Source: Blasia pusilla
Lineage: Eukaryota
Length of the DNA stretch: 64,000 nucleotides
Assembly (NCBI GenBank): GCA_050084515.1
Contig: CM114271.1
Location: 30,318,001-30,382,000 of the forward strand
Reading direction: 5' to 3'
In this document: positions 10,558 to 59,600 of the stretch, piece after piece
Layout of the letters: each line of letters starts with the position of its first letter
Position numbering within the stretch: the first letter of the stretch is position 1
Notes under the pieces: model-generated
What the model was told of the DNA's origin: nothing
Seen by the model: only the letters and a program-made list of their open reading frames with translations
Databases searched by the model: none
Program-made: the position numbers and the translations under genes

Positions 10558-11200
10558 TGTCACGTCCTTTAGGATAGATCGGTGAGATCTAGTAGAGCGT
10601 CTTCAAGAGTAGTGGAGGACAGGCCTAGGAGGTCGAGGATGACCTAGTGAGGCCCCAGGAAACTTGAGAGAGCAAGTTTCCCCTTCGTTTTGGCTCATTT
10701 GGAGCCATATTGAGGAACTTACTATTTTAGGTAAGTACCATTTTGAGTATATGATCGAATTTCTATTTTTGGTAAGTGGCCCCTGACCTCCTACATCAGG
10801 TTAAGAGCCAAGGAGGTGAATTGGGAGAATAGGTTACCATGGAGAGAGCTTGGGAGAGGGGAGGGGTGTATATCTTAAGGAGAGAGAGCTTGAGAACTCA
10901 TTCTCTCTTTGTTGAAGCTCTTGGCATGAGGCGGCGGAGTTATGGTCCCTTGCCTTATGAGTGTAATCCAAGCCTCTCATTAAGAGAGTGGGTTTGGTTT
11001 GACATGAGAGAGAGTGCACACCTTTGAGAGCTATGGTATGAGATTGTGTAGAGAGAGATTGGATCTTACTTTATTGGAGATATTTTGGTACTTCTTGTCT
11101 CGTTGTTTGGATGCCATGAGTTAGCATGGGATTGTGCGTGTTTGTGTGTATGTTCGGTGACAACGATGTATGTTGTATAGCGATGTGTATGCGCACGACA
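10558..11200 (+). mobile_element. Solo terminal repeat (B+A, 643 bp) of gypsy family 2
   Basis: TGTCA...CGACA ends; 4-bp TSD CGTT (10554-10557, 11201-11204); reverse complement is similar along its length to 56617-57259. Confidence 0.92.
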
Positions 11201-30600: not shown

Positions 30601-30772
30601 AATTTTGGCCGCACACGCAACCTCTATGGAGAATTGCATCTCTACCTTGCTTCGTTGGAGCCCAAGTTGGGGACTAGGAGCTCATTCACAAGAGTCCGCC
30701 CAAACTAGGTCCCCAAATTGAGCCTATTCAAATAGGTTGGTTAGATCTAGCTTTCCACATCGATGTTGCAAC

Positions 30773-30911
30773 TGTCGTGCGCATACATATTGCTACACAA
30801 CATACATCGCTGGTTACATCTACACCACACAACACCGATCTTCCCCACACATGGGTCGATCCACACATGTACAAAAATCATCTCATACATATACATGGAG
30901 ATCACACAACC
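30773..30911. repeat. Element 1 repeat A (139 bp, terminal copy)
   Basis: Matches 31394-31532 with about 7 substitutions; absent from the other end of the element. Confidence 0.93.
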
Positions 30912-31391
30912 AAAAATAAAGAGTAGTAAAAATGGCACACCCGGCCGAAAACTCCATTCCTCAATCTACATTGGCATATCGAGCCTCGTCCACCTTATGC
31001 TATCAAGGAATCCAGACGCTAGCACCCTAGTCCTATCTCACACACATACAAGGGAGGTGCTCCAACGGCCCAACATGAGAAAGATGGCTTAGGAAAGCCA
31101 TCTTCCTCTCTTATATAGAGTTGGGAAGAGCCAAAAGGCTCTTCCCCTAAAAATAACCCTCTTCTTAGTAACCTGCGCACATAGGTTACGAGGGGCGAGT
31201 GACCTGGTCAACAAGTCACCCGGCTATGAAAGACCTCAACATGAAAGTTATTAGAAACGACGTTCCTGACACAATGGACCTATTCTCAACCTCATCCGAC
31301 CCCGTGGGACAAAGTTACACTCAAGATAGTCCACTGGCTCCTACGCCCTATCCACGATAGATCTCGGCCTATCGGCTACTCAGATGTGATA
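30912..31391. repeat. Element 1 repeat B (480 bp, 3' copy)
   Basis: Matches 39299-39778 with about 15 substitutions counted by eye, mostly transitions. Confidence 0.95.
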
Positions 31392-31393
31392 GC

Positions 31394-31532
31394 TGTCGTA
31401 CGCATACATATCGCTACACAACATACATCGGTGGTCATATCTACACCACACAACACCGATCTTCCCCACACATGGGTCGATCCACACACGTACAAAAATC
31501 AACTCATACATATACATGGAGATCACACAACC
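31394..31532. repeat. Element 1 repeat A' (139 bp, internal copy)
   Basis: Separated from B by the dinucleotide GC (31392-31393); abuts the G-rich tract on the internal side. Confidence 0.93.
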
Positions 31533-31542
31533 GCCCCCCTAG
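31533..31542 (-). promoter_or_regulatory. Putative polypurine tract, upstream of A' rather than of B
   Basis: Minus strand TAGGGGGGC; equivalent TAGGGGGCG at 41336-41344 and TAAGGGGGCA at 57389-57398 in family 2. Confidence 0.65.
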
Positions 31543-31607
31543 CTGGCAGTTGGATCCCCCCAACTCCAGAAAGAAAATATCACATCTCTCTGATATCACC
31601 TACTACC

Positions 31608-32870
31608 CTATACACATCTCGGACACATCCATCGTCCCGTGGGAACCACATCAACATGGGAGTCAGACATGACATATGCCACCCTCGAGAACAACCATCA
31701 CATACCAACATGGTGGCTGCATCCCTCGCAGATCCGCACATCAGACACCGCAAGCCTACAGGTACCACTGCCAAGCTCGGATCCACCGTCCCATCTATGT
31801 TCGGAAGAGGACATGACGCACAATTGCGCACATGATCCTTCCAAACCATACCATCCCGTCCCTCCAACATGAGGACTCCGGTCGGTAATACCTCGCGCAC
31901 ACGTAGGATTGTGCGCCCTGCAGTGACATCTAGCGTCGTGGGTGCCGCCTGCTCTAAATACACGTAATCTCCAGGTTGAAACCTCCTAATCCCTAGACGA
32001 TAACCTCCTCCACGAATATTCGTGTACCTCAATGTATCTCTATGCTCAGCAATAGCTAAGTTCTCAAAGGCCATAAGCATAACTCTACGAAAAACCTCCG
32101 CCCTCTGAGAACATGCTTGTACCCACACATCTGGATCATCAAGATCTAACACCTCTGCCATGTCACGTCGAATCGCTGCAGGTAAATCTGGCTCTCTCTC
32201 AAAGAGCAAAAAGTACTGTGAAAATGACGCCAAGGATGCCTACCGACTAAAGCAAAAACCCATAGCCAACCATGGCAACTGTAGGTCCCACTCCCTCAAC
32301 TGTCCCCGCTGCATGCCATACTTGCGCAATCCTCTCTTCACCGTCTGTACCACTCTCTCCGCCAACCCATCCGCCTCAGGATGATCTCTGGACGTGGTGC
32401 AGTGTTCTATCAGCGCCTGATCACACAAGGCCTAAAACTCTCCCCTGAACTCGGTACCGTGGTTAGTCAACACCTCCGCCAGTGCATCAAAGTGACTAAG
32501 CACATGATCTAGAAACGCATAAGCTGTTCCCTTGCTCGCCTTGCCTGGTAGTGCCACCAACTCTATCCACTTGGAGAAATGCTCCACCATGACCAACACG
32601 TACATATGATGACGCCGCGTCAATGGCAAAGGTCTCGCAAAGTCTAAACTCCACCGATAACCTAAATCCATAACTGGAAAAGGATGTAACTGCGGAGTGG
32701 GAGCATTGAAGGATGCTCGCACTCTGTCACATACCATACATCCGCCACAAATGCTGTACCCGGTATGCATGCGCGCCACCAATCTTGAACACGAGTAAGT
32801 CGTAAGTCCGCTTTACTCCGAAATGTCCCAACTCCTAATGGGCATGTCGTACTACACGTGCTCGCTAGGA
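31608..32870 (-). pseudogene. Element 1 integrase (HHCC + DDE core) with C-terminal PHD finger
   Basis: HAH-x-LGHFG...C-x2-C; RWSLDFARPLP...VEHFSKW...TNHGTEF; HPEADGLAERVVQTVK; CLMC...LVCDGCSRGWHMSCL...(frameshift)WMCPRC. Contains stops. Confidence 0.9.
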
Positions 32871-33309
32871 AGGATGAGGTACCACTCGTATCCTACCATC
32901 TCCCCATACCCGCAAAATATGAGTTCCCTCCCACCTGAACCTCTTGGCTCTCTGTAGGATCCGATCCCGCTCCCTAGCACTCACTGTACTTGCAATGACG
33001 CCAGTGCATAAGAACTCCACAACCTCCACGTCGTCATGGATATCACGTCCACCTGTCGCCTCCTCACTAACCTCCAGATCCAAAGACTCATCATCCAACC
33101 CCACCACTAGAGTCATCACCTGTGGCTGACCTGCTATAGTCAACCAACAAAGATAGGCAGATGCATGCCAACCGGGCACCATCTCCTCATCACTTTCTCC
33201 GTGCCATCGAGCTCTTGTGTCGTCTCTCTGACTCGAACATGGGTCACAACTCAACCAATCCGCATCCTGGTTCAGCCGACCTGGCCTATGAACCACCTCA
33301 AACTCATAC

Positions 33310-33965
33310 TCCTATAGTAATAGAGCCCACCTTGCAAGCTTTCCCGTAAGCTTGTCGGACTCCATCAACCACCTCAACGGCTGATGATCAGTGATAAGTG
33401 TGAAAGGGTTGCCGAATAAAAAGCACCTGAAATGTGCCACTGCCCACACTGCAGCCAAGCACTCTCCCTTGTAGGAGGTGTACTTCGCCTCTGCAATGTT
33501 GTTCGATCGGCTCGCGTAAGCCACAACGAACTCCCTCTCCTCGTCATCCCTCTGAGTAAGCACTGCTCCTAGACCCAACATGCTCCAATCCGTATGTAAC
33601 TGGAATGGGCGACCCCTAATCGGTCTCTGTTAAATGGGTGAGGATGTCAACATGTCCTTGAGCTCCTGAAATGCTCGCTCCTCATCATCTCCTCACAACC
33701 AAACCTGATCAAGTCTCGTCAACAAGGTCAAAGACTTTGCGATCGCACTAACACCCTTGACATACCATCGATAGAAGTTCGCCAGTCCAAGAAATGCTCG
33801 GACTCGACTCACATATGTAGGGCGTGGAATCTGCGCAATAGCCTCTACCTTCGTCTACTAAACGCCTAACCCACTCGGGTATATGGTGTGTCCCAAGTAC
33901 TCAATCTGCTCCTGAAAGAATCTGCACTTGCCTGGATGTAACTTCAGTCCATGTTACTGCAATCC
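33310..33965 (-). pseudogene. Element 1 RT C-terminal part and RNase H; RT core deleted
   Basis: HGLKLHPGKC..YLGH, FLGLANFY, FQLHTDWS...LGAVLTQ...VVAYASR...TDHQPL. About 740 bp present in element 2 (43795-44540, including YIDD) is missing at ~33965. Confidence 0.88.
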
Positions 33966-34108
33966 ATGTAACACTAGGGTTGCTATGTAGCAACCCTAGC
34001 CACCTCCGCAACAGGCACTCCACTTTGACCTCCTACACCATGCTCCACATCCGAAAAATGAACATGTGCTACTCTAGCCGCCTTCGCACTCTCTGCTCGA
34101 ATGACGTC

Positions 34109-35860
34109 CTAGGAAGTCCATGGGTGCCTATCTCTCCTCGTCTCGCCCTCAGCCAATGCCTGTACAGAACCTTTAGGCAATTGTCCAACTCGTGGACGTG
34201 ACGACATAGATGACACTCGCATCCGTCTCTGCTCAGCCATACCTAGGTTGACTATCCATGTGAGACAGTTGAGGTCCATCGCCTGCTCCAACACGTGTCT
34301 CTGGGATGCCTCAATCATCCCTGGCACCGCCGTAGTACCGGTAGCGAACCCCATGGCGCGCTCGCGCTCATCAGCTGTAGGCTCCTCCAATGCTCCGGTC
34401 ACCTCATCCCAAATCATGCCTGGCCCTCCCTGACGAAAGGCATGGGATGCTGGGAAGCTCACCAACGTAGGTAAGGCTGCCCTCAACTCCCCCATCCTAT
34501 TGGTCATGGCCAACGGTGGTCTATCATCCCGTGTCACCACTAGAGATCGACGCCCTGAGCCCAAAATAGCATCCACTGTGAGATGTGGTGCTCTCTGGAC
34601 TCCATCGTACGCTCGACTCGCACTGTGATGGTATCGGTTCGTCCACCACAGTCGTGGACGATGGGCACGTGATCCAACTCTCGCCGCATCTAATAACACA
34701 GCAGGTCCCAACCAGAACCTCACCTGATACACACTCGTCATCACACGTGCACGAGTGTCTCCCAACAATGGCACGTTCTCCAAGATGTACGTTGGAGAAC
34801 ATGTCTGACTCTCCTGCAAGTGTTGTACTACTCGCAGCATCTCCCAAAACATCCCTGACCTCGGATCCTGCAATCCAAATCCTTGGCCAGCTGATGAATG
34901 ACACTGACATGGCCATCCAGCAATCACCAAATGAATGGTGCCAACTCTATGCAGATCTTGCGCCCCCACCAAAGAGATGTCGGCGGGTAGTGTATGCTGA
35001 TATCCCCATACTGCACATACCGACAACAACTCAGGATACCTCTGTACCAATCTCGCCACGTGACGTAATGATACTCGCCGTGCGGTCTGATCTCTCTCAC
35101 CATAAAGGTATTGATGCACCCGTATGCCCGCCTGCAATACTGCAGCCAATCCGGTGCTAATCCTTCCGAAGATATCTAACACCCTAACACCCTCCTCTGG
35201 GCACTGCCACACAACAGGTGTGGTATCCAGTGGGGTCAACGTCTCCACGCCAAGAGCCTGATCGCCACGTGACTCACGCTGCTCCGGGATAAAAGCATGA
35301 CTCCACGCGTGCCTCACGAGGTTGTTGGCACTCCTCTGTAGCTCTGGAGTTATACCCCACAATGGTGAAGAGTTCTCGCCAACATGGGAAGAGACACCCG
35401 CCATGGCCTGACTCTCTGCGGGACTATCTGCTACTAAGACATCCTCCACATGTGCGTTATCCTCCAACAACTCTCCTGGCCAGCTAACACTACCTGTGAA
35501 AGCCGCCAACGTGGTCACAGACTCGCCTCGTGATCGACCACCTCGTCCCGCAAACTGCACGGGTAAGTGACTCATCTGGTCGTCACCTGACCGCCATCTT
35601 GGCCGATAAGCAACGGTCTCCTCCCATAAGTCAAGGATGAATCCTAGGGGATATAACAATGTACTCCCCACCAACATATCGTACGACTCAACTGGTGTCG
35701 TAATTGCACGTGTGCGCACCATAGCACTATCTGTCTCATACTCTGGCTGGACTCTAACAACTATCTCCTCTCGAGTCATATATTGCGTGGGTGACATGCC
35801 CCCAATCGAGGTCTGTATCTGAAAGGGACAAGGCTCAATGTCGGCCTTTCGTAACCCCAA
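34109..35860 (-). CDS. Pol segment: aspartic protease C-terminal half plus Dnmt3-like C5 cytosine DNA methyltransferase (~34250-35190)
   Basis: 583-aa open frame with C5-MTase motifs in linear order: I VLDIFGRISTG, II YLYGE, IV AGWPCQ, VI ILENV, VIII RAHRPRLWWTN, IX ERERAMGF, X VLEQAM. Confidence 0.9.
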   Translation of the reverse strand: MGLRKADIEPCPFQIQTSIGGMSPTQYMTREEIVVRVQPEYETDSAMVRTRAITTPVESYDMLVGSTLLYPLGFILDLWEETVAYRPRWRSGDDQMSHLPVQFAGRGGRSRGESVTTLAAFTGSVSWPGELLEDNAHVEDVLVADSPAESQAMAGVSSHVGENSSPLWGITPELQRSANNLVRHAWSHAFIPEQRESRGDQALGVETLTPLDTTPVVWQCPEEGVRVLDIFGRISTGLAAVLQAGIRVHQYLYGERDQTARRVSLRHVARLVQRYPELLSVCAVWGYQHTLPADISLVGAQDLHRVGTIHLVIAGWPCQCHSSAGQGFGLQDPRSGMFWEMLRVVQHLQESQTCSPTYILENVPLLGDTRARVMTSVYQVRFWLGPAVLLDAARVGSRAHRPRLWWTNRYHHSASRAYDGVQRAPHLTVDAILGSGRRSLVVTRDDRPPLAMTNRMGELRAALPTLVSFPASHAFRQGGPGMIWDEVTGALEEPTADERERAMGFATGTTAVPGMIEASQRHVLEQAMDLNCLTWIVNLGMAEQRRMRVSSMSSRPRVGQLPKGSVQALAEGETRRDRHPWTS

Positions 35861-35863
35861 CGC

Positions 35864-38100
35864 TTAACACGCCGCCTTCCCTAACATCAAGGGTTGCGCT
35901 CCCAAATCAAGTAGGACGCGCTGCAGATGGTATACTGTCCCCGTCGGACTAACCAAGCAAAATACTCCACCTCGGTTATCTAGTAACACTACTCCAAGTG
36001 TCACCACTGCTCGCTCTATGGCCGGTCGAGTTGGCATATCTACCAACTTCGCCGCCGCCGCATGCCATGACTCGGTGGGGAACGTCCCGAGCACCCGCTC
36101 TGAGGGCAATTCCACCACCTCCTCAACTACCTCTGAACAAGAAGCAGTCATCTCTCCACGCTCACACAACGTGGCGACCAACCGGAACAGCTCAGCTGGT
36201 CCAACTCCCAACGTCGCCAACTCTATGGCGGAAAATAGTGGAGTTTGACTCACTCTGGCGGCCACCTCCAACACTATGGTCGACAGTGACTCCACTCGAG
36301 CCGGCATAGGAGTTGTCACTCCAACTCCTCATGAGGTTAACGTAGGTACTTGAGCTGTAGGCACCAATGGTCATCGAGGCACCATCGATGGTGTGTGTAG
36401 TGCCTCCGACAATGTGAATGACTATGGAACCCTGGCCTGCCGCCCGTCGGTCCCCTTTGGTGGGTCAATCTCAACTCCACCTCTCAATGGCTCGGTGCCT
36501 CTCGCAGCATCCCGAGTCACCACTATAGCTGCCTCAACCCAGGCTGCACTACACATAAATCCCAAACTGGCAAGATCCTCACCCGGGTCAGGATAAGAGG
36601 TAGAATCCGGAGTCACACTAGCTGCTCGCAGCTCCGTGCCTTCCCTAAGCTGCATCATCATCATGGCAGCAATCCTTTGCTCCAACTGATTGATGTGTGA
36701 GAGAAGTGTCGGCTCTGGTGCTCCTGCTCCTCTGGCTGGTGGTGGTCCTCTACCATCACGTCCAGGAAGACTCCCCGACCTCCTCCGGGACAACCGCCCC
36801 CAGGCCCTCGGCCTACCTCTGGACGTGCCCCTCGGCGAAGGTCAAAACATTTATCCCTAGTGTGACCATATCTATGGGAATAGTCACACTGGTGCTATGG
36901 TGGGGCTATCCTCTGTGGCTCCTGAGCAATGGGAGGCACTAGTGGTCTTTCCCATGCTGTGGGTAGTCTCTTTGCCTATGGGCCCCTCCACACGTCCAAC
37001 AAGACCACATCGGTCCTTGTTGGGCAACATATGTAGGTACGGGTTGTTGTCTCATAGGCTCACGGTACCCGCCCTGCTCTCTAGGCACACTCGCCCACTC
37101 CCGTGGTACTGGTGCTCGTTGTGGCACCTGTGGGGTCACCATCGCTCGTGGACCCGTCGACTCTCGAGAAAATCCAGCGGTCACTACCGGCTCCTCACTC
37201 ATGTTGAGCTCAATACGCTCAGACAACTTAAAGACCACCTTCAATGTGGGCTTCGCTGTGTGAATCAGCACCGCATCTCGGACTCTCTTCCGTAGTTCTC
37301 GGTCCAGAACCCCCTACCAATACTGGACTGACTGCGCCTCAGTCACTCCAAACGTAGCAATGATCAGCCTCCTCATGCGTGTGAATGCCTCTCTCGGACT
37401 CTCACCCGATCGTCGCTCAAAATCATGTAGACTCTTTAGCTTGTCGGTGCGTACGCCCTGGTAGCTCTTCCCCAACTGTCGGAAGAACTCCACTGTGGGG
37501 CTGAAGCTGGGTGGTCCTCTACCATCAGAGGTCTCTGCCACATCGCCCATCTCATTGCCCTCCTCTCCATCTAATCTCCGGGCTAATGGTGTGGATCTCT
37601 CTCCTCTCACAATCCCATCATATGCCTCGCGACCACTAGTGGACACATACCCTGGAGCCCAATACATCCTCTAGGCATCGATCTCTACTGAATATAGTGA
37701 TCGAAACTCCATATAGTCATCCATCGGAGGACCCTCCAAGTGCTGGAACGATCCCTTCCATGCCATGAAATGGTTGAATCGTGTCGGGGTCCGTATCTCT
37801 TGGAAATCACACCACGTGTCGAACTCCTGGATAAAATCATCTAAGTCGATGGTGCCCACTGCACCCGAGAAACGACGCATGCCCCGATGGCCCATGTCGT
37901 CCATCTCCTGCCAAGTACTACTGTCTCTGTCTGCGATCTCGTCACCAGACCTAATGTCTACTAATGAAGATCCAGCCACGTATGGATGTCGAGGTAGCTC
38001 CTCACTGGTAACCCCTCGGTATCTCAATCCACTCCGTGTCACACCACTACTACTGCTCGCACTACCCGGTTCTTCCGAACCCTGGAAGAATGCCGTGATG
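35864..38100 (-). pseudogene. Element 1 gag and protease active-site region, broken by stops
   Basis: RFSGAVGTIDLDDFIQEF (gag N-terminal-like), FERRSGESPREAFTRMR (MHR-like), CWTCGGAH zinc-knuckle remnant, RVLLDLGAQP protease-like motif. Confidence 0.8.
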
Positions 38101-39284
38101 ACAAACCCTGTCTCACCCGCTCAAGCACTCAGACTCATCGAGAGTCTCCCACACGCCTCACTAGCTCACCTATGCTAATATCAATCCCGTGATGACATAC
38201 CTGGCCTCACGCACACTCAACACTCGGGCTCACTATGAGCCTCCCAACTGATTCACCTAACGTAGCGACACTCTCTCGGGTCATACACGCGACCCCTACT
38301 CGGCAACCGCCGTATATCCACCAACATGCTACACATGAAAAGAATCTACACTCGTCACCATCACTGCACCCACCTAGCACCAGCTACTACCCGATACCCA
38401 ACACTATCAATCACACACGACAAGTGCGGGAAAAGGGACTCGAATGGATAACCTGATCACGCCCTCCAACCTGCTGCACCATCAACATGCACTCCTCCAC
38501 GTGATATGACAACCTCCGCAACAAAACACTCTCCTCGACCAACACGTCGATCCTCCCATCAACAGATGCAGACAACCTGTCGGCATCATGCGCACTGCCC
38601 CTCCATCGTCAACTCTCGCAACGCCCTATCGCGCCCCAAAAACATCATGTCGCGCAAACCTCTCCGTCCATCCCCACACGCGGCATGTAACCTGACTCAC
38701 CCTGGTCGGCTCCCACCTACCACGTACGCCCTGTCCGACCACGTGAACATGAGCTCGACCACATTTGGACTCTCAACGACGTCTCCATCCAACCATGTTC
38801 GGTCCTACCACGTTTCCCATGCGCAACCACGTCCAAAGGGGAAGAAAAAGAGTAGTAAATGTGAGAGGGGGGGCCTGGCCCGCACCCCTATGGGCCTCCC
38901 CAACTTTTGGGGTGAGAAATAAATGCGCTTGGGGGCGCGCCATCGCCCCCCGTCTGCTCGTCGCCGTCCGCCCGTCCGCGCCCGCCGACCTAAACGCCCA
39001 TCAGCGCCTCCGACGGCTGCAAGCCCTAACTCTCCTTCTTGCTAAATCTCGACATTCCCGCTACTAGACGACGCTATACCTCCCGTCACAACCTGCGCTA
39101 CACCCTGCTCCTGTCCCCCATCAATCCGCACCAACAAAATCTGAGAAAAACGGACAGCGCTTCCGCCCACGGCCTTCCAAACAGAAAAATGACAAATACG
39201 ACACCAACCAACGTCTCCACGGGCTCCCGACCAAGGCAACTCGCTTGCCTACCTGCAAACAACGAATTCCCACCAACCCCCTGA

Positions 39285-39298
39285 CATCTTTCTCATGT
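39285..39298 (-). promoter_or_regulatory. Primer-binding-site position, complementary to the element's own predicted transcript 5' end
   Basis: Minus strand ACATGAGAAAGATG directly follows repeat B; its exact 14-nt complement is on the same strand at 39473-39460. No tRNA-type TGG start. Confidence 0.7.
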
Positions 39299-39778
39299 AA
39301 AAATAAAGAGTAGTAAAAACGGCACACCCGGCCTAAAACTCCACTCCTCAATCTACATTGGCATATCGAACCTCGTCCACCTTATGCTATCAAGGAATTC
39401 AGACGCTAGCACCCTAGTCCTATCTCACACACATACAAGGGAGGTGCTCCAACGGCCCAACATGAGAAAGATGGCTTAGGAAAGCCATCTTCCTCTCTTA
39501 TATAGGGTTAGGAAGAGCCAAAAGGCTCTTCCCCTAAAAATAACCCTCTCCTTAGTAACCTGCGCACACAGGTTACCAGGGGCAAGTGACCTGGTCAACA
39601 AGTCACCCGGCTATGAAAGACCTCAACATGAAAGTTATCAGAAACGACGTTCCTGACACAATGGACCTATTCTCAACCTCATCCGAACCCGTGGGACAAA
39701 GTTACACTCAAGATAGTCCACTGGCTCCTACACCCTATCCACGATAGATCTCGGCCTATCGGCTACTCAGATGTGACA
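39299..39778. repeat. Element 1 repeat B (480 bp, 5' terminal copy)
   Basis: Direct repeat of 30912-31391; ends TGTGACA followed by the TSD. Confidence 0.95.
39497..39504 (-). promoter_or_regulatory. Putative TATA box of element 1
   Basis: TATATAAG on the coding strand, about 31-32 nt upstream of a CA initiator-like site at 39473/39472; conserved in the 3' B copy. Confidence 0.6.
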
Positions 39779-40959: not shown

Positions 40960-43900
40960 GGAGAGCTTCCGGAACACGAAATTGCTCCGAAATTGAGCTC
41001 TACATGTCGAGACTTTGTTGAGCGTTTGCTTAGTGTGAGTAATAGTCCCCACCATATTATGAGAATGCACACAAAGTGGATCACAGATCAGATGAGAGAT
41101 AAACTCAGTGGATCCTAAACTCAAGCAAGGGATGCTATGCTCAAACATCAAGACATCCTAAACATAAGAAATGCCACGAGGAGGCGATAAAGTGGGTATG
41201 AAGGGACTGTCATGCGCATACACATCCCTATACAACATACATCGTTGTCACCAAACACACACACAACCACGCATGATCCCATGCTAACTCATGGCATCCA
41301 AACGACAAGACAAGAAGTACCAAAATATCTCCAATCGCCCCCTAGATGGTGGTTAGGTCCCTCTAACTCTAGATAGCCATCTAACCCTACCTACCATGAC
41401 ATACATCTCTCGGACGATGAGAGCAAGAAGGCCGCGTGCTCATGTGGCCCCCTCGTTAGTCGCCTTCTTATCATCCATGTCACAAACACAAGTCAGAATG
41501 TAGAACTACCTACTTTATGTACATCCGGGACACATCCATCGTCCCTGAGGAACCCTAGTGAGAGGTGGCCTCAAGCCTGCCATATGCCATCCTCTCGAAC
41601 ATCCATCACAAACTAGCATAGTGGCTGCACCATGGGCAGAACCACACAACATACATCGCAAGCCTGCCCGAACTACTGTATCTTCAATGTTCGGAAGGTG
41701 ACACGGCGCACAGTTACGCACATGGTCCTTCCAAACCATATCATCGCGTCCCTCCAATAAGAGAATACTTGATGGAAAAACCTCACACACTCTCAAGATG
41801 GTGCGCCCTATAGTCACATCCAACATCGTGGATGCCGTCTGTTGTAAGTAGACATAGTCTCCCTAATGAAACCTCCGGATAGTAGGTCGATAACCACCTC
41901 CCCGAATAGTTGCATACCTCAACGTATCTCGATGTTGCGCAATCGCCAAGTTCTCAAACGCCATGGACATCACTCTCCGAAACAACTCAGCCCTCTGAGA
42001 ACATGCTTGCATCCATACATTAGGGTTATCAAGGTTCAACATCTCACCAACATCTCGACGAATGGCGTAAATCTGGCTCCCGGCCATAAAGAAACAAGAA
42101 CGGTGAGAAAGGCGCTAAGGATGCATGCTTGCTGAATCTGTATCCCATCGCCAACCACGATAACTAGAGGTCCCAATCTCCTAGGTGACCTCTCTGCAAG
42201 GCATACTTGCGTAATCCTCTCTTCACCGTCTGTACAACCCGCTCTCCTAGTCCATCCGCCTCAGGATGATCTCGCGTAGTAGTGCGGTGGTCATTAGTGC
42301 CTGATCACACAAGGCCTTAAACTCCCTGCAGAATGTTGTACCCTGGTCTGTCAACACCTTAGATGGTGCGCCGTAATGACTCAGCACTCGATCTAGGAAG
42401 GCATACGTTACTCCCTCACTTGCGTTTTCAGGCAATGCAACCAACTCTATCCACTTCGAGAAGTGCTCGATCATCACCAACACATAACGACTATGGCACT
42501 TTGTCAAAGGCAAAGGTCCTGAAAAATCCAAACTCCATCTATAACCTAAACCCATGATCGGAAGTGGATGCAACAGTGGAGTCGAAGCATTGAATGATGC
42601 TTGAACTCGATCATATACCATGCATCTAGCAACAAACTGTTGAACATCAATCTGCATGCCTCGCCACCAATACTGAATCTGGAGCAAGTTGTACATCCGC
42701 TTCATTCCAAAATGACCCAACTCCTCGTGGGCATGACGCACCAAACGTGCTCTCTGCAAAGGATGAGGCACTACATGCACTCTACCATCCTCCCACACTT
42801 GCAACATTTGTGTCCCTTCCCACCAGAACTGTCTGGCTCGTTGTAGGATCCGATCTCACTCTCTAGCATCCTCTATGCTCGTGATGCTGCCAATACGCAG
42901 GTACTCCAAGACCACTCCATCCTCGTAAATGTCTGGGCCATCTGTTGTCTCCTCACTGGCCTCTGGATCTAAGGACTCTCCATCAGACCTCGCCATCAAA
43001 GTCTTAAAAATCTGGCTCTCCATAGCCAACAAGCCCAAATAGGTTGAGGCATGCCATCCTGGCATCAACTCCTCATCACTCTCACCATGCCTACAAGCTC
43101 CAGTCGCATCTTGCTGACTCGAGCATGGGTTTTGGGACTCCTGCAACAAAAGAGCCCACCTTGCAAGCTTCCTTGTAAGCTTGTCGGACTCCATCAACCA
43201 CTTAAGTGGATGATGATCAGTAATGATGCTCAAGGGATTGCCCAAAAGATAACATCTGAAATGTGCGACAGCTCACACTACAGCCAATCACTCACCCTCA
43301 TACAAGCTATAGTTTGCCTCTGCAGCATTGTTCGAGCGACTAGCGTAAGCCACCACGAACTCTATACCATCATCGTCATGTTGGGTGAGCACGGCTCCAA
43401 GCCCCAACATGCTCCAATCGATATGCAACTGGAAAGGACGCCCCCTGATCGGTCTCCTCAATATGGGCGCGGACATCAGTCTGTCCTTGAGCATCTAAAA
43501 TGCTCTCTCTTGCTCATCCCGCTAGTGCCATTCCTGATCCACCTTGGTCAGCAAGGTTAGCGGCTTCGCAATCGAACTGAAACCCTTTACGTATCGTCCA
43601 TAGAAGTTTGCCAATCCCATGAATGCACGAACTCGACTCACATCTGTAGGGCGTGGAATGCGTGAAATAGCCTCTACCTTCGTCTGTTGCACACCAAGGC
43701 CCCCTAGGTATATCGTATGACCCAAGAACTCAATCTGGTCGTAGAAGAACTTGCACTTGCCTGGATGTAGCTTCAGCCCATGTAACTGCAATCGTCAAAA
43801 CATCTCCTCTAGATGTCGCTCATGCTCCTCAACCATGGCGCTAAAGACTACGATGTCATCAATATAACACCTAGCAAAATCCACACCTGCCAAGATCCTA

Positions 43901-46900
43901 TCCATGACCCTCTGAAACTTAGCCGGGGAGTTCTTTAACCCGAATGGTAAGAACTGCCATTGGTACAAAGAATCCTTCCCGTGAGGATCGATGCCCCAAA
44001 ATGCCGTCTTCTACCTGTCCTCCAATCTTATAGGCAGCTGATGGTATCCGGCTCGTAAATCCAATGAATTGAAGACCTTTGCATGCCCAATCGCATCAAA
44101 GATTTCCTCCAGGGTGGGCATGGCATACCTATTGGACTTCGTCTGCCGATAGATAGGTCCGTAATCTCCACACATCCGCCTATGCGTCCACTTGCCATGC
44201 ACATCCTTCTTGGCGGGCATGAGAGAGGTAGATGCATACTCTCCATGCGACATCTCCACTAGTCCTGCACCAACCAAGTCTTGGCTCCTACTCTGAATCT
44301 GAGCCCTCTCCATGTCACTGTACTTGTAGGATCGTCGAAAGATCGGTGTGTCACTCGACAACTCAATGCGGATCCCTGGACCCTTTAGCGTATCCAAATC
44401 ATGCATACTAAATGCAAAACAACTCCTATAACTCTTAAGGAACTACTGTATCTAACGCCGCTCTCCTCTTGTCAACTTAGGGCCCATATCTGCCTCCCAA
44501 GTCTCCATCGTGAGTACGGTAGGACTCTTCGGCGCGGATGTCGGTGGTTGTTATGGTGCAACCCCGTCTCAGACAATAGAACTCTCATCTCCACGTGCAG
44601 TACCCAGAACCACGCTCGATGTTGTGGCTATCATCTCCTGGCGTACCTGCAAAACATCCCAAGAAGTCCAAGGGTGTCTCTCCCGATCACCCCTGGTGTG
44701 TCGATCTCCTCGGGTCTCGCCCCCAGCCACTGCCTCAACCGTCTTGGTAGGCATGGGGCTCACCAACGCAACAGCTGTGATCTATTGCATCCTCAAACGA
44801 AGCTGCTCAGCTACTCCTAAACTGGAAATCCATGTCAAGCACTTCAGATCTATCGCCCTGATCCAAGACATGACGTCATGATGCCTCTAATAGTGACGGT
44901 ATTGTCGTCACTCCTATGGGTAATCCCATTGCTCGCTCTCGCTCATCGGCGTTGGGCTCCACCAACCTCTGTACTTGGTCATCCCAAACCAAGCCAGGTC
45001 CGGCCTCCTTGAATGCTTAGGAAGCGGGAAAACTCACCAATGTCGATCATATACTCAAAATGGTACTTACCTAAAATAGTAAGTTCCTCAATATGGCTCC
45101 AAATAAGCCAAAACAAAGGGGATACCTGCTCTCTCAGGTTTCTCGGGGCCTCAGTAGGTCATCCTCAACCTCTTGAGTCTGTCCTCCACTACTACTCCCG
45201 AAGGCGCTCTACTCGATCTCACCAATCTATCCTAAAAGATGTAACAGGACAGATGATGCAACCGCGGTCCACATGTGAGTTGAGAGGCATCCTGAACATG
45301 TCATACTTTACAAACCATTTGACCATGTCAATTGAGATCCCTTCACCCTTGATTTTCCACCCCATGGATGCTCCAAAATCTGGTAAGATTTGGAGACGGA
45401 GGTGCCATTAGTATGGATGCGCACATGGAACCAACACACACATACGAGATAACTCAATTGTTTTTGAATGGTTATGTATAGGGATGGTTGTAGGAAGGGT
45501 TAATTTCAATCAGCAAAGGTCAAGTATACCATGTTTTAGAATTTTACTTCGGAAAGTTCTCTACTGAACAGATTCAGAACCCTTCTAATGGAGAGTTCTA
45601 GAACTGAACTTCATTTCATGACACTAACTCTGCATCCTCAGTAACCTAAGACATTGTGGACAATGTGATGTAAGGTCTAGTTTTTTATATTAATTCGGTC
45701 CTCTGTTCTCAAGATATTGCATGTGGAAACACTGATCCTCTATGCATTGTTGGTTTGTTTCACTCCAAATAGTACCAACTGTTCACCCTCCTAGGTTTTG
45801 ATTCCTTCCATAATGGATTACCTATGGTGTAGGCAATTCTACAACGGCATACGCATGCAAACCTTGTGGAAGTTCTCAGGAGCATCAAGGCTCGTGCGGA
45901 AGCCATGATTTGCATTAGTGGACAAGATATCCTGACACGGTGGAACCCTTCTTGCTTCATTGTCGACGATTCAAAGGAAGAGCAATCAGCCATAAGGGAA
46001 GTGTTTCCACAGGTTCCTACCCACTTGTGTATTTGGAACATGCGAAAAGCCTCGCTCAGGAAGCTCCATCAACGAGTTAGATGTCCCATTACCAAGGCAG
46101 ATATGAATCGAGACCTCGGTCAAATTATGTACACTCGATATCTTGGTATGTGTATTTCTCTGGAAATCTGAAGTTTATCCTCCTTGACATGTATTTGCAA
46201 CCTACAAATGAATGTGTGGAGCTAAGTAGACGTGTAACCTGTGCAGATCCTTAGCAAGTATCCATGGACTTCCTCCACAAGTATGTTGATTCTGAGCCGC
46301 ATTTTGTGAAATACTAAACTACAAACTGGCACCCAAAATTGGCCTCATGGGCGAAGGCGTTTAGAAGTAAAGCCACATCTCACCAAGATACCAATGCTGC
46401 AATCGAAAGGTGGCATGCCACCTTGAAGACACATCTCACTTCAAGCATGCCGACCAAGGGAACAAGGAAGATTATTTGGCTAGTTGAAATTTTGACCAAT
46501 GAAGTTGAGGATTTTTGCTGGTACATGGCACTCTTGAAGTCTGAAGGGAGGGTTAGGAACAAGGCAATCTATCGTGTGATGACTATGGCCATAAAGAATG
46601 CTAAAGAAATTCCTGATGCCCATGTTACGTTTGAAAATCACAATGGCGTAAAATATGTGAAGGTCTTGAGTAAATCCAAACGAAGATTTTGACACTCAAT
46701 CTCCAACTACAACTCAAAGATTGCTGCATACACATGCTGCATGCCCAAGAGGGCACCACATGCAAACACCAAGTAAGTGTCCATCTAATTTGGTGCTTAA
46801 ATTGTAACGCACAATTCCATCAACCTCGAATCTTGTGTAGGCGTTCATGCTTTTTTGAAATCAGTTTGGGGTATGGTGACAGGTGAAGTGATTCTTGCTA

Positions 46901-56616: not shown

Positions 56617-59600
56617 TGTCGTGCGCATACACATCGCCACACAACATACATCGCTGTCACCGAACATACACACAAACATGCACGATCCCATGCTGACTCA
56701 TGGCATCCAAACAACGAGACAAGAAGTATCAAAATATCTCCAATAAAATAAGATCCAATCTCTCTCACAACATCATAGTTCTCACATGTGTGCACTCTCA
56801 CATATCTCTCTCAATGTCAAACCAAACCCACTCTCCTAATGAGAGGCTTGGGTTACACTCACAAGCCAAGGGACCATAGCTCCACCGCCTCGTGCCAAGA
56901 GGTTCAACAAAGAGAGAATAAGCTCTCAAGCTCTCTCTCCTTGAGGTATGTCCCTCCCCTCTCCCAAGCTCTCTCCATGGTAACCTATGCTGCCATGTCA
57001 CCTCCTTGGCTCTTGACCTGATGTAGGACGTCAAGGGCCACTAACAAAAAATAGAAAGTCAATCATATACTCAAAATGGTACTTACCTAAAATAGCAAGT
57101 TTCTTAATATGGCTCCAGATGAGCCAAAACAAAGGGGAAATTTGCTCTCTCAAGTTTCCCAGGGCCTCAATAGGTCATCCTCAATCTCATGGGTCTGTCC
57201 TCCACTACTCGCGAAGGCGCTCTACTAGATCTCACCGATCTATCCTAAAAGACCTGACAATTGTCGTGCGCATACACATCGCTAAACAACATACATCGTT
57301 GTCACTGAACACACACACAAACACACATGATCCCATGGTAATTCATGGCATCCAAACAATGCACAAGAAGTACCAAAATATCTCCAATTGCCCCCTTAGC
57401 TTGGGGTTAGGTCCTCTAACTCCAGATAGCCATCTATCCCTACCTACCATGACATACATCTCTTGTACGCTAAGAGCAAGAAGGTCGCGTGCTCATGTGG
57501 CCCAATCGTTAGTCGCCTTCTTGTCATCCATGTCACAGACATAAGTAAGAATATAGAACTACCTACTCTATGTACATCAAGGATACATCCATTGTCCATG
57601 AGGAACCCTAGTGAGAGGTGGCGTCAAGCATGCCATATGCCATCCTCTCGAACATCCATCACAAACTAGCATAGTGGCTGCACCACGGGCAGAACCACAC
57701 AACATACATCACAAGCCTGCACGAACTACTGCTAAGCTCGGATCAACTGTATCGTCAATGTTTGGAAGGTGACACGGCGCACAGTTACGCACATGATCCT
57801 TCCAAACCATATCATTGCGCCCCTCCAATAAGAGAACACCTCATGGCAAAACCTCATGCACTCTCAAGATGGTGCGCCTTGTAGTCACATCCAACGTCGT
57901 GAGCTTCGTCTGCTGCAAGTAGACATAATCTCCGTGTTAAAACCTCCGGATAGGATGAAACCACCTCCCCGAATAGTCGCATACCTCAACGTATCCCGAT
58001 GTTGCGCAATCGCCAAGTTCTCAAACGCCATGGGCATCACTCTCCGAAACAACTCAACCGTGTGAGAACATGCTTGCATCCATACATCAGGATCATCAAG
58101 GTTCAACACCTCACCAACATCTTGACGAATAGTTTTAGGTAAATCTCGCTCTCGTCCAAACAAAAGCAAGTACGGTGAGAAAGATGCTAAGGATGTCTGC
58201 CTGCTGAATTTGTATCCCATCGCCAACCACGGCAACTAGAGATCCCAATCTCCTAGGTGACCTCTCTGCAAGCCATACTTGCGTAGTCCTCTCTTCATCA
58301 TCTACACAACCCGCTCCCCTATTCTATCCACCTCAAGATGATCTCGCGAAGTAGTGCGGTGGTCGATCAATGCCTGATGACACAAGGCCTAAAACTCCCC
58401 GCGGAACGCTGTACCCTGGTCTGTCAACACCTCAACTGGTATGCCGTAATGACTCAACACTCAATCTAGGAAGGCATATGCTAATCCCTCACTCGCTTTG
58501 TTAGGCAATGCAATGAACTCTATCCACTTTGAGAAGTGCTCAATCATCACCAACAGATAACGACTATGACGCTCTGTCAAAGGCAAAGGTCCTGCAAAAT
58601 CCAAACTCCATCTATAACCTAAACTCATGATCAAAAGTGGATGCAACTGTGGAGTCGGAGCATTGAACGATGCTCGGACTCAATCATACACCATACATCT
58701 AGCAACAAAGTGATAAACATAAGTCTGCATGCCTCGCCACCAATACTGAATCTGGAGCAAGTTATACGTCCCCTTCACTCCAAAATGACCCAACTCCTCG
58801 TGGGCATGATGCACCAAACGTGCTCTCTGCAAAGAATGAGGAACTACACGCACTCTACCATCCTCCCACACTCGCAACACATGTGCTCCCTCCCACCCGA
58901 ACCATCTGGCTCACTCTAGGATCCGATCCCGCTCTCTAGCACCCATTGTGCTCGTGACGCTGCCAGTATGTAGGTACTCCAAGACCACTCCATCGTCATG
59001 AATGTCTCGGCCACCTGTTATCTCCTCACCGGCCTCTGCATCTAAGGACTCTCTATCAGACCTCGCCATCGAAGTCTCAAAAATTTGGTTGTCCATAGCT
59101 AACAAGCCCAAATAGGCTCGCCAAATAGGTTGACACATGCCATCCTAGCACCAACTCCTCATCACTCTCACCATGCCAACGAGCTCCAGTCGCATCTCGC
59201 CAACTCGGGCATGGATTACGGCTCAAACCATCTGCATCTTGGTTGAGCGTCCCAAGTCTATGCACCACTTGGAAGACTTACTCCTGCAACAAAAGAGCCC
59301 ACCTTGCAAGCTTCCATGTAAGCTTGTCCGACTCCATCAACCACTTAAGTGGTTGATGATCAGTAATGATGGTAAAGGGATTGCCGAATTGATAACATCT
59401 GAAATGTGCGACAGCCCACACTACAGCCAAGCACTCACCCTCATACGAGCTATACTTCGCCTCTGCAGCGTTGTGCAAGTGAGTAGCGTAAGCCACCACG
59501 AACTCTCTACCATCATTGTCATGTTGGGTGAGCGTGGATCCAAGCCCCAACATGCTCCAATCGGTATGCAATTGGAAAGAATGCCTCTTAATCGGTTTCC

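What the first reader, a model, noticed from the sequence alone, without database searches (positions are those of the whole stretch)
34250..35190. Dnmt3-like C5 DNA methyltransferase embedded in pol between protease and RT
Seen: a complete MTase motif set (I, II, IV PCQ, VI ENV, VIII RxR, IX, X) in frame with the protease C-terminal half, at the same position in elements 2 and 3. It is therefore a stable pol domain of both families, not a chance capture. Motif order is linear, unlike circularly permuted plant DRM, and local sequences (VLDLFGGISTG, AHRPRLWWTN, ERAMGF) resemble Dnmt3. Established: DNMT-bearing retrotransposons were reported in dinoflagellates and a charophyte alga (de Mendoza et al. 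2018). Inference: this extends the phenomenon to an apparent land plant; the enzyme could methylate its own cDNA or insertion site.
Basis: partly seen in the sequence, partly recalled or inferred. Interest (0 to 1): 0.85.

Follow-up and report, generated by a model that had tools for sequence, protein, structure and literature searches.

The report
Liverwort retrotransposon carrying a Dnmt3-type methyltransferase
A decayed copy of a Ty3/gypsy-type jumping gene in a liverwort-like plant carries its own Dnmt3-like DNA cytosine methyltransferase, a kind of element so far described only from an alga but evidently common in liverworts and mosses.

Summary
A 584-codon open frame on the minus strand (34109-35863) passes Pfam's C5 DNA methylase threshold. 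Its nearest solved relatives by sequence profile and by predicted fold are DNMT3A/3B/3C, with unpermuted motif order.

It lies in a complete, target-site-duplicated Ty3/gypsy-like element (30773-39778). The layout is gag-PR-DNMT-RT-RH-INT-PHD with DIRS-like split direct repeats (A-coding-B-A-B). That repeat layout is what de Mendoza et al. 2018 describe for KnitGypsy-Dnmt3 of Klebsormidium.

A second, 55%-identical family in the window (element C) has the domain at the same place. Between the two families, DNMT dN/dS is 0.17, similar to PR and integrase.

Relatives occur in Marchantia (20 gene models), Calypogeia, Riccia, Sphagnum, Closterium and Scenedesmus. A host gene in the window is most like liverwort genes.

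This copy is dead. RT is deleted through the YxDD box, gag-PR has in-frame stops, and motif I carries G->R.

- The DNMT is the C-terminal domain of a gag-PR-DNMT ORF1, separated from RT by a positionally conserved in-frame stop in a UAG-CAR-YYA-like readthrough context.
- More distant relatives place the same DNMT between RNase H and integrase.

Verdict: a new member of a known kind. Catalytic activity and its target are untested.

The parts
30773..39778 (-). Element A: complete insertion of a Gypsy-DNMT3 element. Termini are 5'-TGTCAC...ACGACA-3'. It is flanked by a 4-bp target-site duplication GTTG (39779-39782 and 30769-30772).
39299..39778 (-). Repeat A1 (5' terminal repeat), 97% identical to A2.
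36939..38120 (-). gag region with a decayed CCHC knuckle (CWTCGGAHRQRDY, starting at 37001). It aligns to Marchantia P0010 residues 1-138 in another frame.
35864..36328 (-). Protease N-terminal half with the active-site stretch LLDLGAQ (relatives have LLDSGAQ). It is followed by an in-frame stop. There was no Pfam hit for this copy; relatives match Asp_protease_2 weakly.
34109..35863 (-). 584-codon open frame: protease C-terminal half, a linker, and the Dnmt3-like domain.
34109..35251 (-). Dnmt3-like C5 DNA methyltransferase domain. Motif I is FGR (mutated). Motif IV GWPCQ, motif VI ILENVP, motif VIII AHRPRLWWTN and ERERAMGF are present. Motif X reads LEQAMD (mutated).
33312..33977 (-). RT C-terminal remnant plus RNase H. 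The RT N-terminus through the YxDD box, the linker and the ORF1/ORF2 stop are missing (about 0.76 kb less than element C).
32432..33311 (-). Integrase (zinc-binding part and rve core).
31612..31747 (-). PHD finger at the integrase C-terminus (PF00628, 28.5 bits). Its C-terminal part is decayed in this copy.
31531..31544 (-). Purine-rich tract AGCTAGGGGGGCGG directly before repeat B1; a candidate polypurine tract.
30773..31530 (-). 3' repeat block B1-A2-B2. B1 is about 31394-31530, A2 about 30912-31391, B2 30773-30911. The B1/A2 joint reads ...ACGACA-GC-TATCAC..., an internal copy of the joined element ends.
56617..63659 (-). Element C, a second family (DNMT 55% aa identity to A). It is 5'-truncated and abutted by an A-family terminal block at 63660-64000. 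Its 3' end is B1-A2-B2 (57389-56617).
60817..61983 (-). Element C DNMT domain, with 9 in-frame stops. It matches 60 of 76 conserved columns.
60676..60678 (-). Element C: in-frame TAG followed by CAA CCA (UAG-CAR-YYA context), 19 codons before the conserved WEPDIGP. This is the ORF1/ORF2 boundary.
59092..60366 (-). Element C RT-RNase H, in the same frame as its DNMT. It has 7 stops, and the YxDD box reads *IDD.
41208..45246 (-). Element B, same family as C (85-87% nt). Part of repeat A is joined directly to the DNMT C-terminal 120 codons (44662-45043). RT (YIDD intact), RH, INT and PHD follow, and the element ends after one B repeat.
10558..11200 (+). Solo A+B repeat of the C family (88.5% to 56617-57260). 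It runs TG...CA and is flanked by the TSD CGTT.

Best explanation
What it is. The stretch is the methyltransferase domain of a dead copy of a Gypsy-DNMT3 retrotransposon in a liverwort-like land plant. It is of the same kind as KnitGypsy-Dnmt3 of Klebsormidium.

Family plan (shown):
- ORF1 = gag - aspartic protease - Dnmt3-like C5 DNA methyltransferase.
- A positionally conserved in-frame stop in a UAG-CAR-YYA-like context follows.
- ORF2 = RT - RNase H - DDE integrase - PHD finger.
- The element is bounded by split direct repeats (A1-coding-B1-A2-B2) and a 4-bp target-site duplication.

Selection (shown). The DNMT domain has been kept under purifying selection as long as the other pol domains.

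Mechanism (inferred):
- The DNMT is made with Gag and PR in excess over RT and integrase, the latter being made only by stop-codon readthrough.
- It is a catalytically active DNA C5-methyltransferase that acts on the element's own new DNA, either cDNA or the fresh insertion. This sets a methylation state that favours the element.
- The integrase-linked PHD finger steers insertion by reading the histone H3 tail.

This particular copy (shown) cannot do any of this. RT is deleted through YxDD, gag-PR has four in-frame stops, and motifs I and X carry G->R and G->E.
For: Identity of the domain:
- PF00145 scores 37 bits against a cut-off of 22.
- With the single sequence against the PDB, the first 29 of 44 distinct sequences are DNMT3A/3B/3C; the best is 2.2e-6.
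- With the family profile, DNMT3A scores 6.4e-23 and DRM 1.5e-11. The alignment to DNMT3A is collinear.
- The AF2 model has pLDDT 84 and pTM 0.84. The top Foldseek hits are all DNMT3A/3B/3C, E about 1e-17, TM on target 0.79-0.84.

Element structure:
- RNase H, rve and PHD are found downstream in Pfam.
- TSD GTTG, TG..CA termini and a solo A+B repeat with TSD CGTT.
- Split repeats in elements A and C and in metagenome locus L039.
- The same layout is described in the Fig. 4c legend of PMC5890265.

Selection:
- A versus C dN/dS: DNMT 0.17 (bootstrap 0.09-0.28), PR 0.23, RNase H 0.085, integrase 0.145, INT-PHD 0.07.
- 76 columns are at least 85% conserved in 85 relatives, including PCQ, ENV and RxR. 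Element A keeps 71 of them.

ORF1/ORF2 stop:
- In L024, ORF1 (1369 aa: weak Asp_protease_2 plus DNMT) and ORF2 (1047 aa: RVT_1, RNase H, integrase, PHD) are separated by one in-frame TAG-CAG-TTA.
- All 25 loci examined, including window element C, have a stop 8-25 codons before the RT N-terminal anchor.
- 24 of the 25 have the stop followed by CAA or CAG. Four match CARYYA exactly; 20 read CAA-CCC.
- The motif definition is from PMC3542737.

Distribution:
- 68 near-length and 50 longer relatives.
- 587 clusters at E<=1e-30.
- In the tree, A and C lie in a 17-row clade with Marchantia and Calypogeia, SH-aLRT 99.

Host: best hits of the host gene are liverworts.

Transcription: about 200 RNA reads per run, nearly all in the orientation expected for sense transcripts, mostly 95-99% alike and so from other copies.
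Against: - No enzymatic evidence exists for this lineage. In PMC5890265 the KnitGypsy-Dnmt3 domain gave no detectable de novo methylation in yeast, which the authors call inconclusive (passage read).
- Synonymous divergence between A and C is saturated (pS 0.70, dS about 2), so the ratio of 0.17 is rough.
- The recent pair B/C gives 0.59-0.85 for the DNMT tail, with intervals that include 1, and 0.58 for RT-RH. This is as expected for dead copies and does not show selection.
- Most copies seen are decayed. In 40 of 45 metagenome loci the longest frame over the DNMT is under 300 codons.
- Only 4 of 25 stops have the exact CARYYA hexamer, and the 25 loci are related copies, not independent samples.
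- No Klebsormidium sequence and no host DNMT3, DRM, MET1 or CMT sequence could be placed in a tree here.
- RNA depth over the DNMT part is at most 1.7.
- CpG observed/expected in the elements (0.63-0.77) is not lower than in the host stretches (0.45-0.62), so there is no sign of special CG hypermethylation decay.
Confidence: 0.8

Rival explanations
1. The domain is kept but not as a DNA methyltransferase. It would serve as a DNA- or chromatin-binding module, or it would methylate the element's RNA (m5C), as DNMT2 does for tRNA.
For: KnitGypsy-Dnmt3 showed no DNA methylation in yeast (PMC5890265). The domain sits in the Gag-PR part, which packages RNA. No accessory PWWP or ADD domain was found.
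Against: The catalytic set (PCQ cysteine, ENV, RxR, motif I glycines) is conserved in at least 85% of 85 relatives, which a pure binding module would not need. The profile similarity to DNMT3A (6.4e-23) far exceeds that to DNMT2 (2.8e-6). The fold matches DNMT3-DNA complexes best.
Confidence: 0.12
2. The enzyme is active but acts on the host genome or on rival elements rather than on the element's own DNA. For example, it could blunt host silencing or mark neighbouring chromatin.
For: It would be made in Gag-like amounts if the stop is leaky. PMC5890265 itself raises 'accidental' activity on the host genome.
Against: Nothing in the sequence separates this from self-methylation. The K. nitens methylome was reported as plant-like despite such elements.
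Confidence: 0.2
3. The land-plant elements are an independent capture of a Dnmt3 gene by a PHD-bearing Gypsy lineage, not the same lineage as KnitGypsy-Dnmt3.
For: No Klebsormidium protein appeared among the named hits. The same DNMT sits at two different places in pol: before RT in the window, L024, P0098 and Closterium P0117; between RNase H and integrase in P0099, P0112, P0245 and Scenedesmus P0273. So the domain has moved or been captured more than once.
Against: The unusual pairing of Gypsy domains with A-coding-B-A-B repeats is shared with the published description. All these DNMT domains are mutually alignable at E<=1e-35 and form one family reaching chlorophytes.
Confidence: 0.25
4. 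The domain is a chance capture or an assembly chimera of a host DNMT gene next to a retrotransposon.
For: None beyond the fact that this copy is rearranged (RT deletion).
Against: The domain has the same position and frame in two families in the window, in 25 metagenome loci, and in 20 Marchantia gene models and others. The element is bounded by a TSD. Host MpDNMT3b (Mp5g09290) is not one of those models.
Confidence: 0.01

Closest known systems
KnitGypsy-Dnmt3 of Klebsormidium nitens (de Mendoza et al. 2018, PMC5890265; passages and figure legends read)
   Same: Gypsy domain composition. An unpermuted Dnmt3-type domain inside the polyprotein. DIRS-like A-coding-B-A-B repeats. Purifying selection on the DNMT (paper Ka/Ks < 0.2; here 0.17). 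Intronless.
   Different: The host is a liverwort-like land plant. No sequence comparison with K. nitens copies was possible. The ORF1/ORF2 stop, the PHD finger and the 4-bp TSD are not mentioned in the text I read ('PHD' has 0 occurrences). Supplements were closed and may show them.
SymbioDIRS-Dnmt3 of Symbiodinium (same paper)
   Same: A Dnmt3-type domain in the RT-bearing polyprotein. The domain order differs between sub-lineages. Two copies methylated CG de novo in yeast.
   Different: It is a DIRS element with a tyrosine recombinase in a dinoflagellate host. The element here has an rve integrase and makes a TSD.
Cellular DNMT3A/3B/3C (animals) and plant DNMT3 (e.g. MpDNMT3b, Mp5g09290)
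   Same: Best sequence-profile and fold match. Collinear motifs I-X. The AHRxR..W.N motif VIII is very alike.
   Different: No PWWP or ADD domain. PCQ instead of DNMT3A's PCN. About 19% identity in structural alignments. A longer stretch between motifs VIII and IX. Part of a retroelement polyprotein.
DRM2 (plant de novo methyltransferase)
   Same: Belongs to the Dnmt3 lineage and is the second-best group in the profile search (1.5e-11).
   Different: DRM is circularly permuted: profile positions 120-247 match DRM residues 229-350. The element's domain is not permuted.
Chromoviruses (Ty3/gypsy with a chromodomain on the integrase C-terminus)
   Same: A histone-tail reader fused to the integrase C-terminus, presumably for choosing insertion sites.
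   Different: Its nearest solved relatives are CHD4, PHF12, PHF21A, KDM5 PHD1, ATXR5, UHRF1 and AIRE. That most of these read unmethylated H3K4 or the H3 N-terminus is recalled, not tested.
Leaky-stop gag-pol expression (MLV-type) and the plant-virus UAG-CAR-YYA signal (PMC3542737)
   Same: One in-frame stop sits between the abundant upstream product and RT. The hexamer after the stop fits or nearly fits CARYYA.
   Different: The stop lies after PR and DNMT, not after gag. Readthrough is not shown experimentally.

Membership tests
C5 cytosine DNA methyltransferase (PF00145) | Pfam model above the gathering score | tested here: met
   37 bits against 22, E 3.4e-9. L024 ORF1 scores 51 bits.
C5 cytosine DNA methyltransferase (PF00145) | Catalytic motifs I (FxGxG), IV (PC), VI (ENV), VIII (RxR) and X, in order | tested here: inconclusive
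   The family keeps all of them (76 conserved columns). Copy A has PCQ, ENV and RxR but G->R in motif I and G->E in motif X. Copy C has stops.
Dnmt3 family | Closest to DNMT3 among solved methyltransferases, by sequence and by fold | tested here: met
   Profile: DNMT3A 6.4e-23, DRM 1.5e-11, HhaI 1.3e-8, DNMT2 2.8e-6. No DNMT1, CMT or DNMT5 entry is among the 59 listed. Foldseek's top hits are all DNMT3A/B/C.
Dnmt3 family | Placement inside the Dnmt3 clade in a tree with DNMT1/MET1, CMT, DRM, DNMT2/5/6 and bacterial enzymes | not tested
   No reference sequences of those families could be obtained. The tree holds only element-borne domains.
Dnmt3 family | Unpermuted motif order (as against DRM) | tested here: met
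   Collinear blocks against DNMT3A: profile 119-154, 189-306 and 396-431 match chain 14-49, 67-181 and 246-281.
Gypsy-DNMT3 retrotransposons (KnitGypsy-Dnmt3 type) | Gypsy pol domains (PR, RT, RNase H, rve integrase) with the DNMT in the polyprotein | tested here: met
Gypsy-DNMT3 retrotransposons (KnitGypsy-Dnmt3 type) | Repeat layout A-coding-B-A-B | tested here: met
   Element A, element C and L039. The published legend was read.
Gypsy-DNMT3 retrotransposons (KnitGypsy-Dnmt3 type) | Sequence kinship with the K. nitens copies | not testable with these tools
   No K. nitens sequence was returned. Supplements were closed.
Gypsy-DNMT3 retrotransposons (KnitGypsy-Dnmt3 type) | Purifying selection on the DNMT | tested here: met
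   A versus C 0.17 (0.09-0.28), with dS saturated. The recent pair B/C is not distinguishable from 1.
Ty3/gypsy (Metaviridae-like LTR retrotransposons) | RT-RH-INT order, DDE integrase, short TSD, TG..CA ends | tested here: met
   (TSDs GTTG and CGTT).
DIRS-like elements | Tyrosine recombinase, no TSD | tested here: not met
   An rve integrase is present and a 4-bp TSD is seen. Only the repeat layout is DIRS-like.
DRM methyltransferases | Circularly permuted catalytic domain | tested here: not met

The most novel reading that the evidence does not exclude
The family is an ancient 'epigenetic kit' retroelement of green plants, found from Scenedesmus through Closterium to liverworts and mosses. 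It would work in two parts:
- A Dnmt3-type enzyme is made as the tail of Gag-PR, in large excess over RT and integrase, through a conserved leaky UAG. It is therefore packed into the particle and methylates the new cDNA before or at integration.
- An H3K4me0-type PHD finger on the integrase picks the chromatin.

The element would thus write its own methylation state instead of waiting for the host's. Because Marchantia polymorpha carries some 20 gene models of it, this could be tested in a tractable land-plant model.
Probability: 0.3. Interest if true: 0.75.

Novelty: new member of a known kind. Interest (0 to 1): 0.5.

Why it matters
Retrotransposons that carry the very enzyme hosts use to silence them are a paradox. 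Their role is still open; the 2018 authors say so in their discussion.

They were described from a dinoflagellate and one charophyte alga. Showing that the same kind of element is common in liverworts and mosses moves the question into organisms with genetics, methylomes and mutants. Marchantia polymorpha alone has 20 gene models annotated only as hypothetical proteins.

Three anatomical points give concrete, testable handles on how the enzyme is deployed:
- the DNMT lies upstream of a conserved leaky-stop boundary;
- a PHD finger sits on the integrase;
- the DNMT occupies a second position in more distant relatives.

The copy in this window is itself a fossil and of no functional interest.

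Tried and rejected
- Whole-genome search of the window's own genome: none is held.
- One search failed because my coordinates were out of frame; I corrected them.
- RNA holders: 'no RNA holder listed' by the index. Laying three RNA runs of the same species label gave only about 200 reads each, mostly from other copies. This says little about this copy.
- ESM Atlas: the nearest cluster is a Streptophyta PF00145 cluster, followed by phage methylase clusters. It added nothing to the searches.
- Naming representatives: 20 look-ups gave one organism name (Scenedesmus) and no Klebsormidium.
- CpG depletion as a trace of self-methylation: the elements are not more depleted than the host stretches, so I dropped it.
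- A recurrent TAGCAACCA-like hit about 959 nt upstream of the DNMT in many loci is out of frame with the DNMT. I took it to be conserved coding sequence, not a second stop.
- My first ratio for the DNMT (0.77) came from a frame error of mine and is void. Searches give the correct value.
- In the tree I labelled P0116 'type 2' from its Pfam list. Its DNMT lies at residues 1-350 of 1516, that is before RT, and it falls with the type 1 rows. Only P0099, P0112, P0245 and P0273 (type 2) and L024, P0098 and P0117 (type 1) were checked by coordinates.
- Literature searches found no paper describing DNMT-bearing Gypsy elements in a land plant. Only the held open-access library was searched, and supplements were closed.
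- I did not run a homodimer prediction, because no binding claim is made.
Full report
**Observation**

On the minus strand, 34109-35863 is a single open frame of 584 codons. Pfam finds a C5 cytosine DNA methylase in it (PF00145, 37 bits against a gathering score of 22, E 3.4e-9). The same call found RNase H (33312-33629), an rve integrase core (32432-812) and a PHD finger (in 31580-32239) downstream on the same strand. Six of the ten frames I gave it had no hit.

The frame starts right after a stop that follows the protease active-site stretch.

A tblastn of this frame against the window finds two further copies:
- 60817-62583 (element C), 53.5% identity over 385 aa for the DNMT part.
- 44662-45043 (element B), which holds only the last 120 or so codons.

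**What the domain is**

With the single sequence, the first 29 of 44 PDB matches are DNMT3A, 3B or 3C (best 2.2e-6). Bacterial M.HaeIII and M.HhaI follow.

With a profile of 30 family members (alignment A1), the order of matches is:

| Match | E-value |
|---|---|
| DNMT3A | 6.4e-23 |
| DNMT3C | 5.3e-21 |
| DNMT3B | 1.7e-20 |
| tobacco DRM | 1.5e-11 |
| Arabidopsis DRM2 | 1.7e-9 |
| M.HhaI | 1.3e-8 |
| DNMT2 | 2.8e-6 |

No DNMT1, chromomethylase or DNMT5 entry is among the 59 listed.

The match to DNMT3A is collinear.

An AlphaFold2 model built on A1 has mean pLDDT 84 and pTM 0.84. Foldseek against the PDB returns DNMT3A/3B/3C chains at every listed rank (E about 1e-17, TM on the target 0.79-0.84, about 19% identity).

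I could not place the domain in a tree with cellular DNMT families. No reference sequences could be brought in.

**The element around it**

Self-comparison and reading the joints show that element A spans 30773-39778 on the minus strand. It starts TGTCAC, ends ACGACA, and is flanked by the 4-bp duplication GTTG.

Its repeats are not ordinary LTRs. In sense orientation the order is:
- A1, 480 bp.
- The coding region.
- A purine-rich tract.
- B1, about 137 bp.
- A2, 97% identical to A1.
- B2, 95% identical to B1.

The B1/A2 joint (...ACGACA-GC-TATCAC...) looks like the two element ends joined with two bases between. Element C has the same block (...ACGACA-AT-TGTCAG...).

A solo A+B unit of the C family lies at 10558-11200 on the plus strand with its own duplication, CGTT. 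Metagenome locus L039 repeats the whole A1-coding-B1-A2-B2 layout around its DNMT.

This is the layout that de Mendoza et al. 2018 give for KnitGypsy-Dnmt3. Their Fig. [quoted passage not shown] Here the rve integrase and the duplications show that insertion is integrase-type, not recombinase-type.

**State of the copies**

Element A is dead:
- Against the Marchantia protein P0024, it lacks residues 516-660. That is the RT from its start through the YxDD box at 641.
- It is about 0.76 kb shorter than element C there.
- Its gag-PR-DNMT frame has four internal stops, all upstream of the DNMT.
- Of 76 alignment columns that are at least 85% conserved in 85 relatives, it keeps 71. The five misses include G->R in motif I (a column that is G in 99%), R->Q (99%) and G->E in motif X (96%).

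Element C keeps 60 of the 76 columns. It has 9 stops in the DNMT and 7 in RT-RH.

Element B joins part of repeat A directly to the DNMT tail.

**Selection**

Nei-Gojobori estimates between A and C:

| Region | dN/dS | Bootstrap interval |
|---|---|---|
| DNMT | 0.17 | 0.09-0.28 |
| Protease | 0.23 | not quoted |
| RNase H | 0.085 | not quoted |
| Integrase core | 0.145 | not quoted |
| Integrase tail with PHD | 0.07 | not quoted |

Synonymous sites are saturated (pS 0.70), so these are rough. They do put the DNMT among the ordinary pol domains.

The young pair B/C gives 0.58 for RT-RH and 0.59-0.85 for the DNMT tail, with intervals reaching 1. That is what decay after insertion predicts. A first value of 0.77 was a frame error of mine.

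**Relatives**

The word-indexed protein search found 68 relatives of similar length and 50 longer ones. Named relatives:

| Organism | Number |
|---|---|
| Marchantia polymorpha | 20 gene models (9 + 11) |
| Calypogeia fissa | 3 |
| Riccia sorocarpa | 1 |
| Sphagnum | 4 |
| Closterium | 6 |

All of these are 'hypothetical' or 'unnamed' proteins.

The exhaustive profile search gave 16300, 3083 and 587 clusters at E up to 1e-3, 1e-10 and 1e-30. Of 20 representatives looked up, one carried an organism name: 'pol [Scenedesmus sp. PABB004]'.

I built a quick maximum-likelihood tree of 43 element-borne domains, rooted arbitrarily on Scenedesmus; 6 of 49 rows were dropped as too short. It puts A and C in a 17-row clade with the 11 Marchantia and 2 Calypogeia rows (SH-aLRT 99). 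Marchantia forms one clade (100).

A host gene in the window is an MTV1-like ENTH/VHS protein (51688-52488, minus strand). It is 75% identical to Marchantia paleacea, 68% and 65% to two Riccia species and 65% to Calypogeia. It is at most 52% identical to vascular plants. The window is therefore from a liverwort-like land plant. I did not try to go further.

First, the DNMT is not simply 'in pol'.
- In the one intact relative (L024), a 1369-codon ORF1 (gag, weak Asp_protease_2, DNMT) is followed in the same frame by a 1047-codon ORF2 (RVT_1, RNase H, integrase, PHD). A single TAG followed by CAG TTA separates them.
- Anchoring on motif X and on the RT N-terminus, all 25 loci with both anchors less than 500 nt apart have a stop 8-25 codons before the conserved WEPxIGP. 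Element C is among them, with its stop at 60678-60676.
- In 24 of the 25, CAA or CAG follows the stop. Two read TAG-CAA-CCA, two TAG-CAG-TTA and 20 TAG/TAA-CAA-CCC.
- In 19 of the 25, DNMT and RT are in the same frame.
- UAG-CAR-YYA is the classical plant-virus readthrough signal (PMC3542737, passage read).
- Predicted ORF1 proteins from independent contigs and from Marchantia also end 93-162 residues after motix X.

The loci are related copies, so this is conservation across perhaps five sub-lineages, not 25 trials. Readthrough itself is inferred.

Second, more distant relatives place the DNMT between RNase H and integrase. These are P0099, P0112, P0245 and Scenedesmus P0273, at 34-40% identity. 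The window, L024, P0098 and Closterium P0117 have it before RT. All checked full-length forms except P0098 and P0117 show the PHD finger after the integrase.

The PHD finger of L024 is most like CHD4, PHF12, PHF21A, KDM5 PHD1, ATXR5, UHRF1 and AIRE fingers. From memory these mostly read the unmethylated H3 tail. I did not test that.

**Expression**

The run index listed no RNA holder.

Three RNA runs of the same coded species were laid on 30500-45500. They gave 196, 207 and 241 reads, of which 14, 11 and 9 were at least 99% alike. Inside the elements almost all had the first mate on the plus strand, which in most stranded libraries means RNA of the minus, sense, strand.

Depth over the DNMT part was at most 1.7. 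So relatives of these elements are transcribed at a low level. Nothing shows that this copy is.

**Literature**

- de Mendoza et al. 2018 report the kind from Symbiodinium and K. nitens only. 'Marchantia' and 'PHD' do not occur in the text.
- A 2025 paper (PMC12344493) and a 2026 preprint (10.64898/2026.05.21.726589) refer to 'streptophytes' with that citation (passages).
- A chromatin-evolution preprint notes PHD-transposon fusions in general.
- Five searches found no description of such elements in a land plant. The limits are an open-access library and closed supplements.
- The host MpDNMT3b is Mp5g09290, which is not one of the element gene models.

**Verdict**

The finding is real and correctly read. 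It is a fossil copy of a Gypsy-DNMT3 element, a new member of a known kind.

Its value lies in three things: the family's breadth in bryophytes, the ORF1-DNMT/leaky-stop arrangement, and the PHD finger. What the enzyme methylates, and whether it is active at all, remains untested.

Noticed in passing
window 60676-60678(-); L024:5083-5085; 23 further loci: A positionally conserved in-frame stop lies between the DNMT and RT, followed by CAA/CAG and two pyrimidines (a UAG-CAR-YYA-like readthrough context). The DNMT is therefore the tail of a gag-PR-DNMT ORF1.
   Followed up: yes
P0099, P0112, P0245, P0273: A second architecture of the same family has the DNMT between RNase H and integrase. One example is annotated 'pol' in the chlorophyte Scenedesmus sp. 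PABB004.
   Followed up: partly
window 10558-11200(+): A solo A+B terminal repeat of the element C family, running TG..CA, with the 4-bp duplication CGTT. It is what recombination between A1 and A2 would leave.
   Followed up: yes
window 63660-64000: An A-family terminal block (B plus the start of A, 91-94% to 30773-31114) abuts the truncated gag of element C. Another A-family element probably begins beyond the window end.
   Followed up: partly
window 4335-5419(-): A weak, more distant Gypsy-like RT/RNase H and gag fragment: 33-51% to Marchantia P0024 and P0010, and 72.5% nt to 43619-44025.
   Followed up: no
window 49893-52488(-): A host gene for an MTV1-like ENTH/VHS protein. Its best named hits are liverworts (75% to Marchantia paleacea).
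   Followed up: partly
window 18712-22742(-), 14106-16103(+), 45833-47519(+): Further long open frames lie outside the elements. By eye they are a multi-exon gene with a glycosyltransferase-like look, a 666-codon frame, and frames that look like a transposase. None was searched.
   Followed up: no
window 45042-45043 (table 7): 15-32 RNA reads per run leave the window sequence exactly where element B's repeat fragment is joined to the DNMT tail. Transcribed relatives therefore continue with the normal repeat sequence there.
   Followed up: no
window 30500-45500 (table 1): Where reads differ from the window, T>C and A>G dominate (for example 33 and 22 places against 10 C>T and 6 G>A in X19). The window copies therefore carry extra C->T/G->A changes, as expected of methylated, decaying copies. 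The G->R, R->Q and G->E changes in copy A's motifs are of that kind.
   Followed up: partly
window 26004-26317 and 27141-27597: Short-range direct repeats (69-75% identity) in a GC-rich stretch.
   Followed up: no
P0020: A public protein labelled as from a 'Candidatus Obscuribacterales' MAG is 47% identical to the domain. It groups tightly with L024 in the tree, so it is probably a misbinned eukaryotic retroelement contig.
   Followed up: partly
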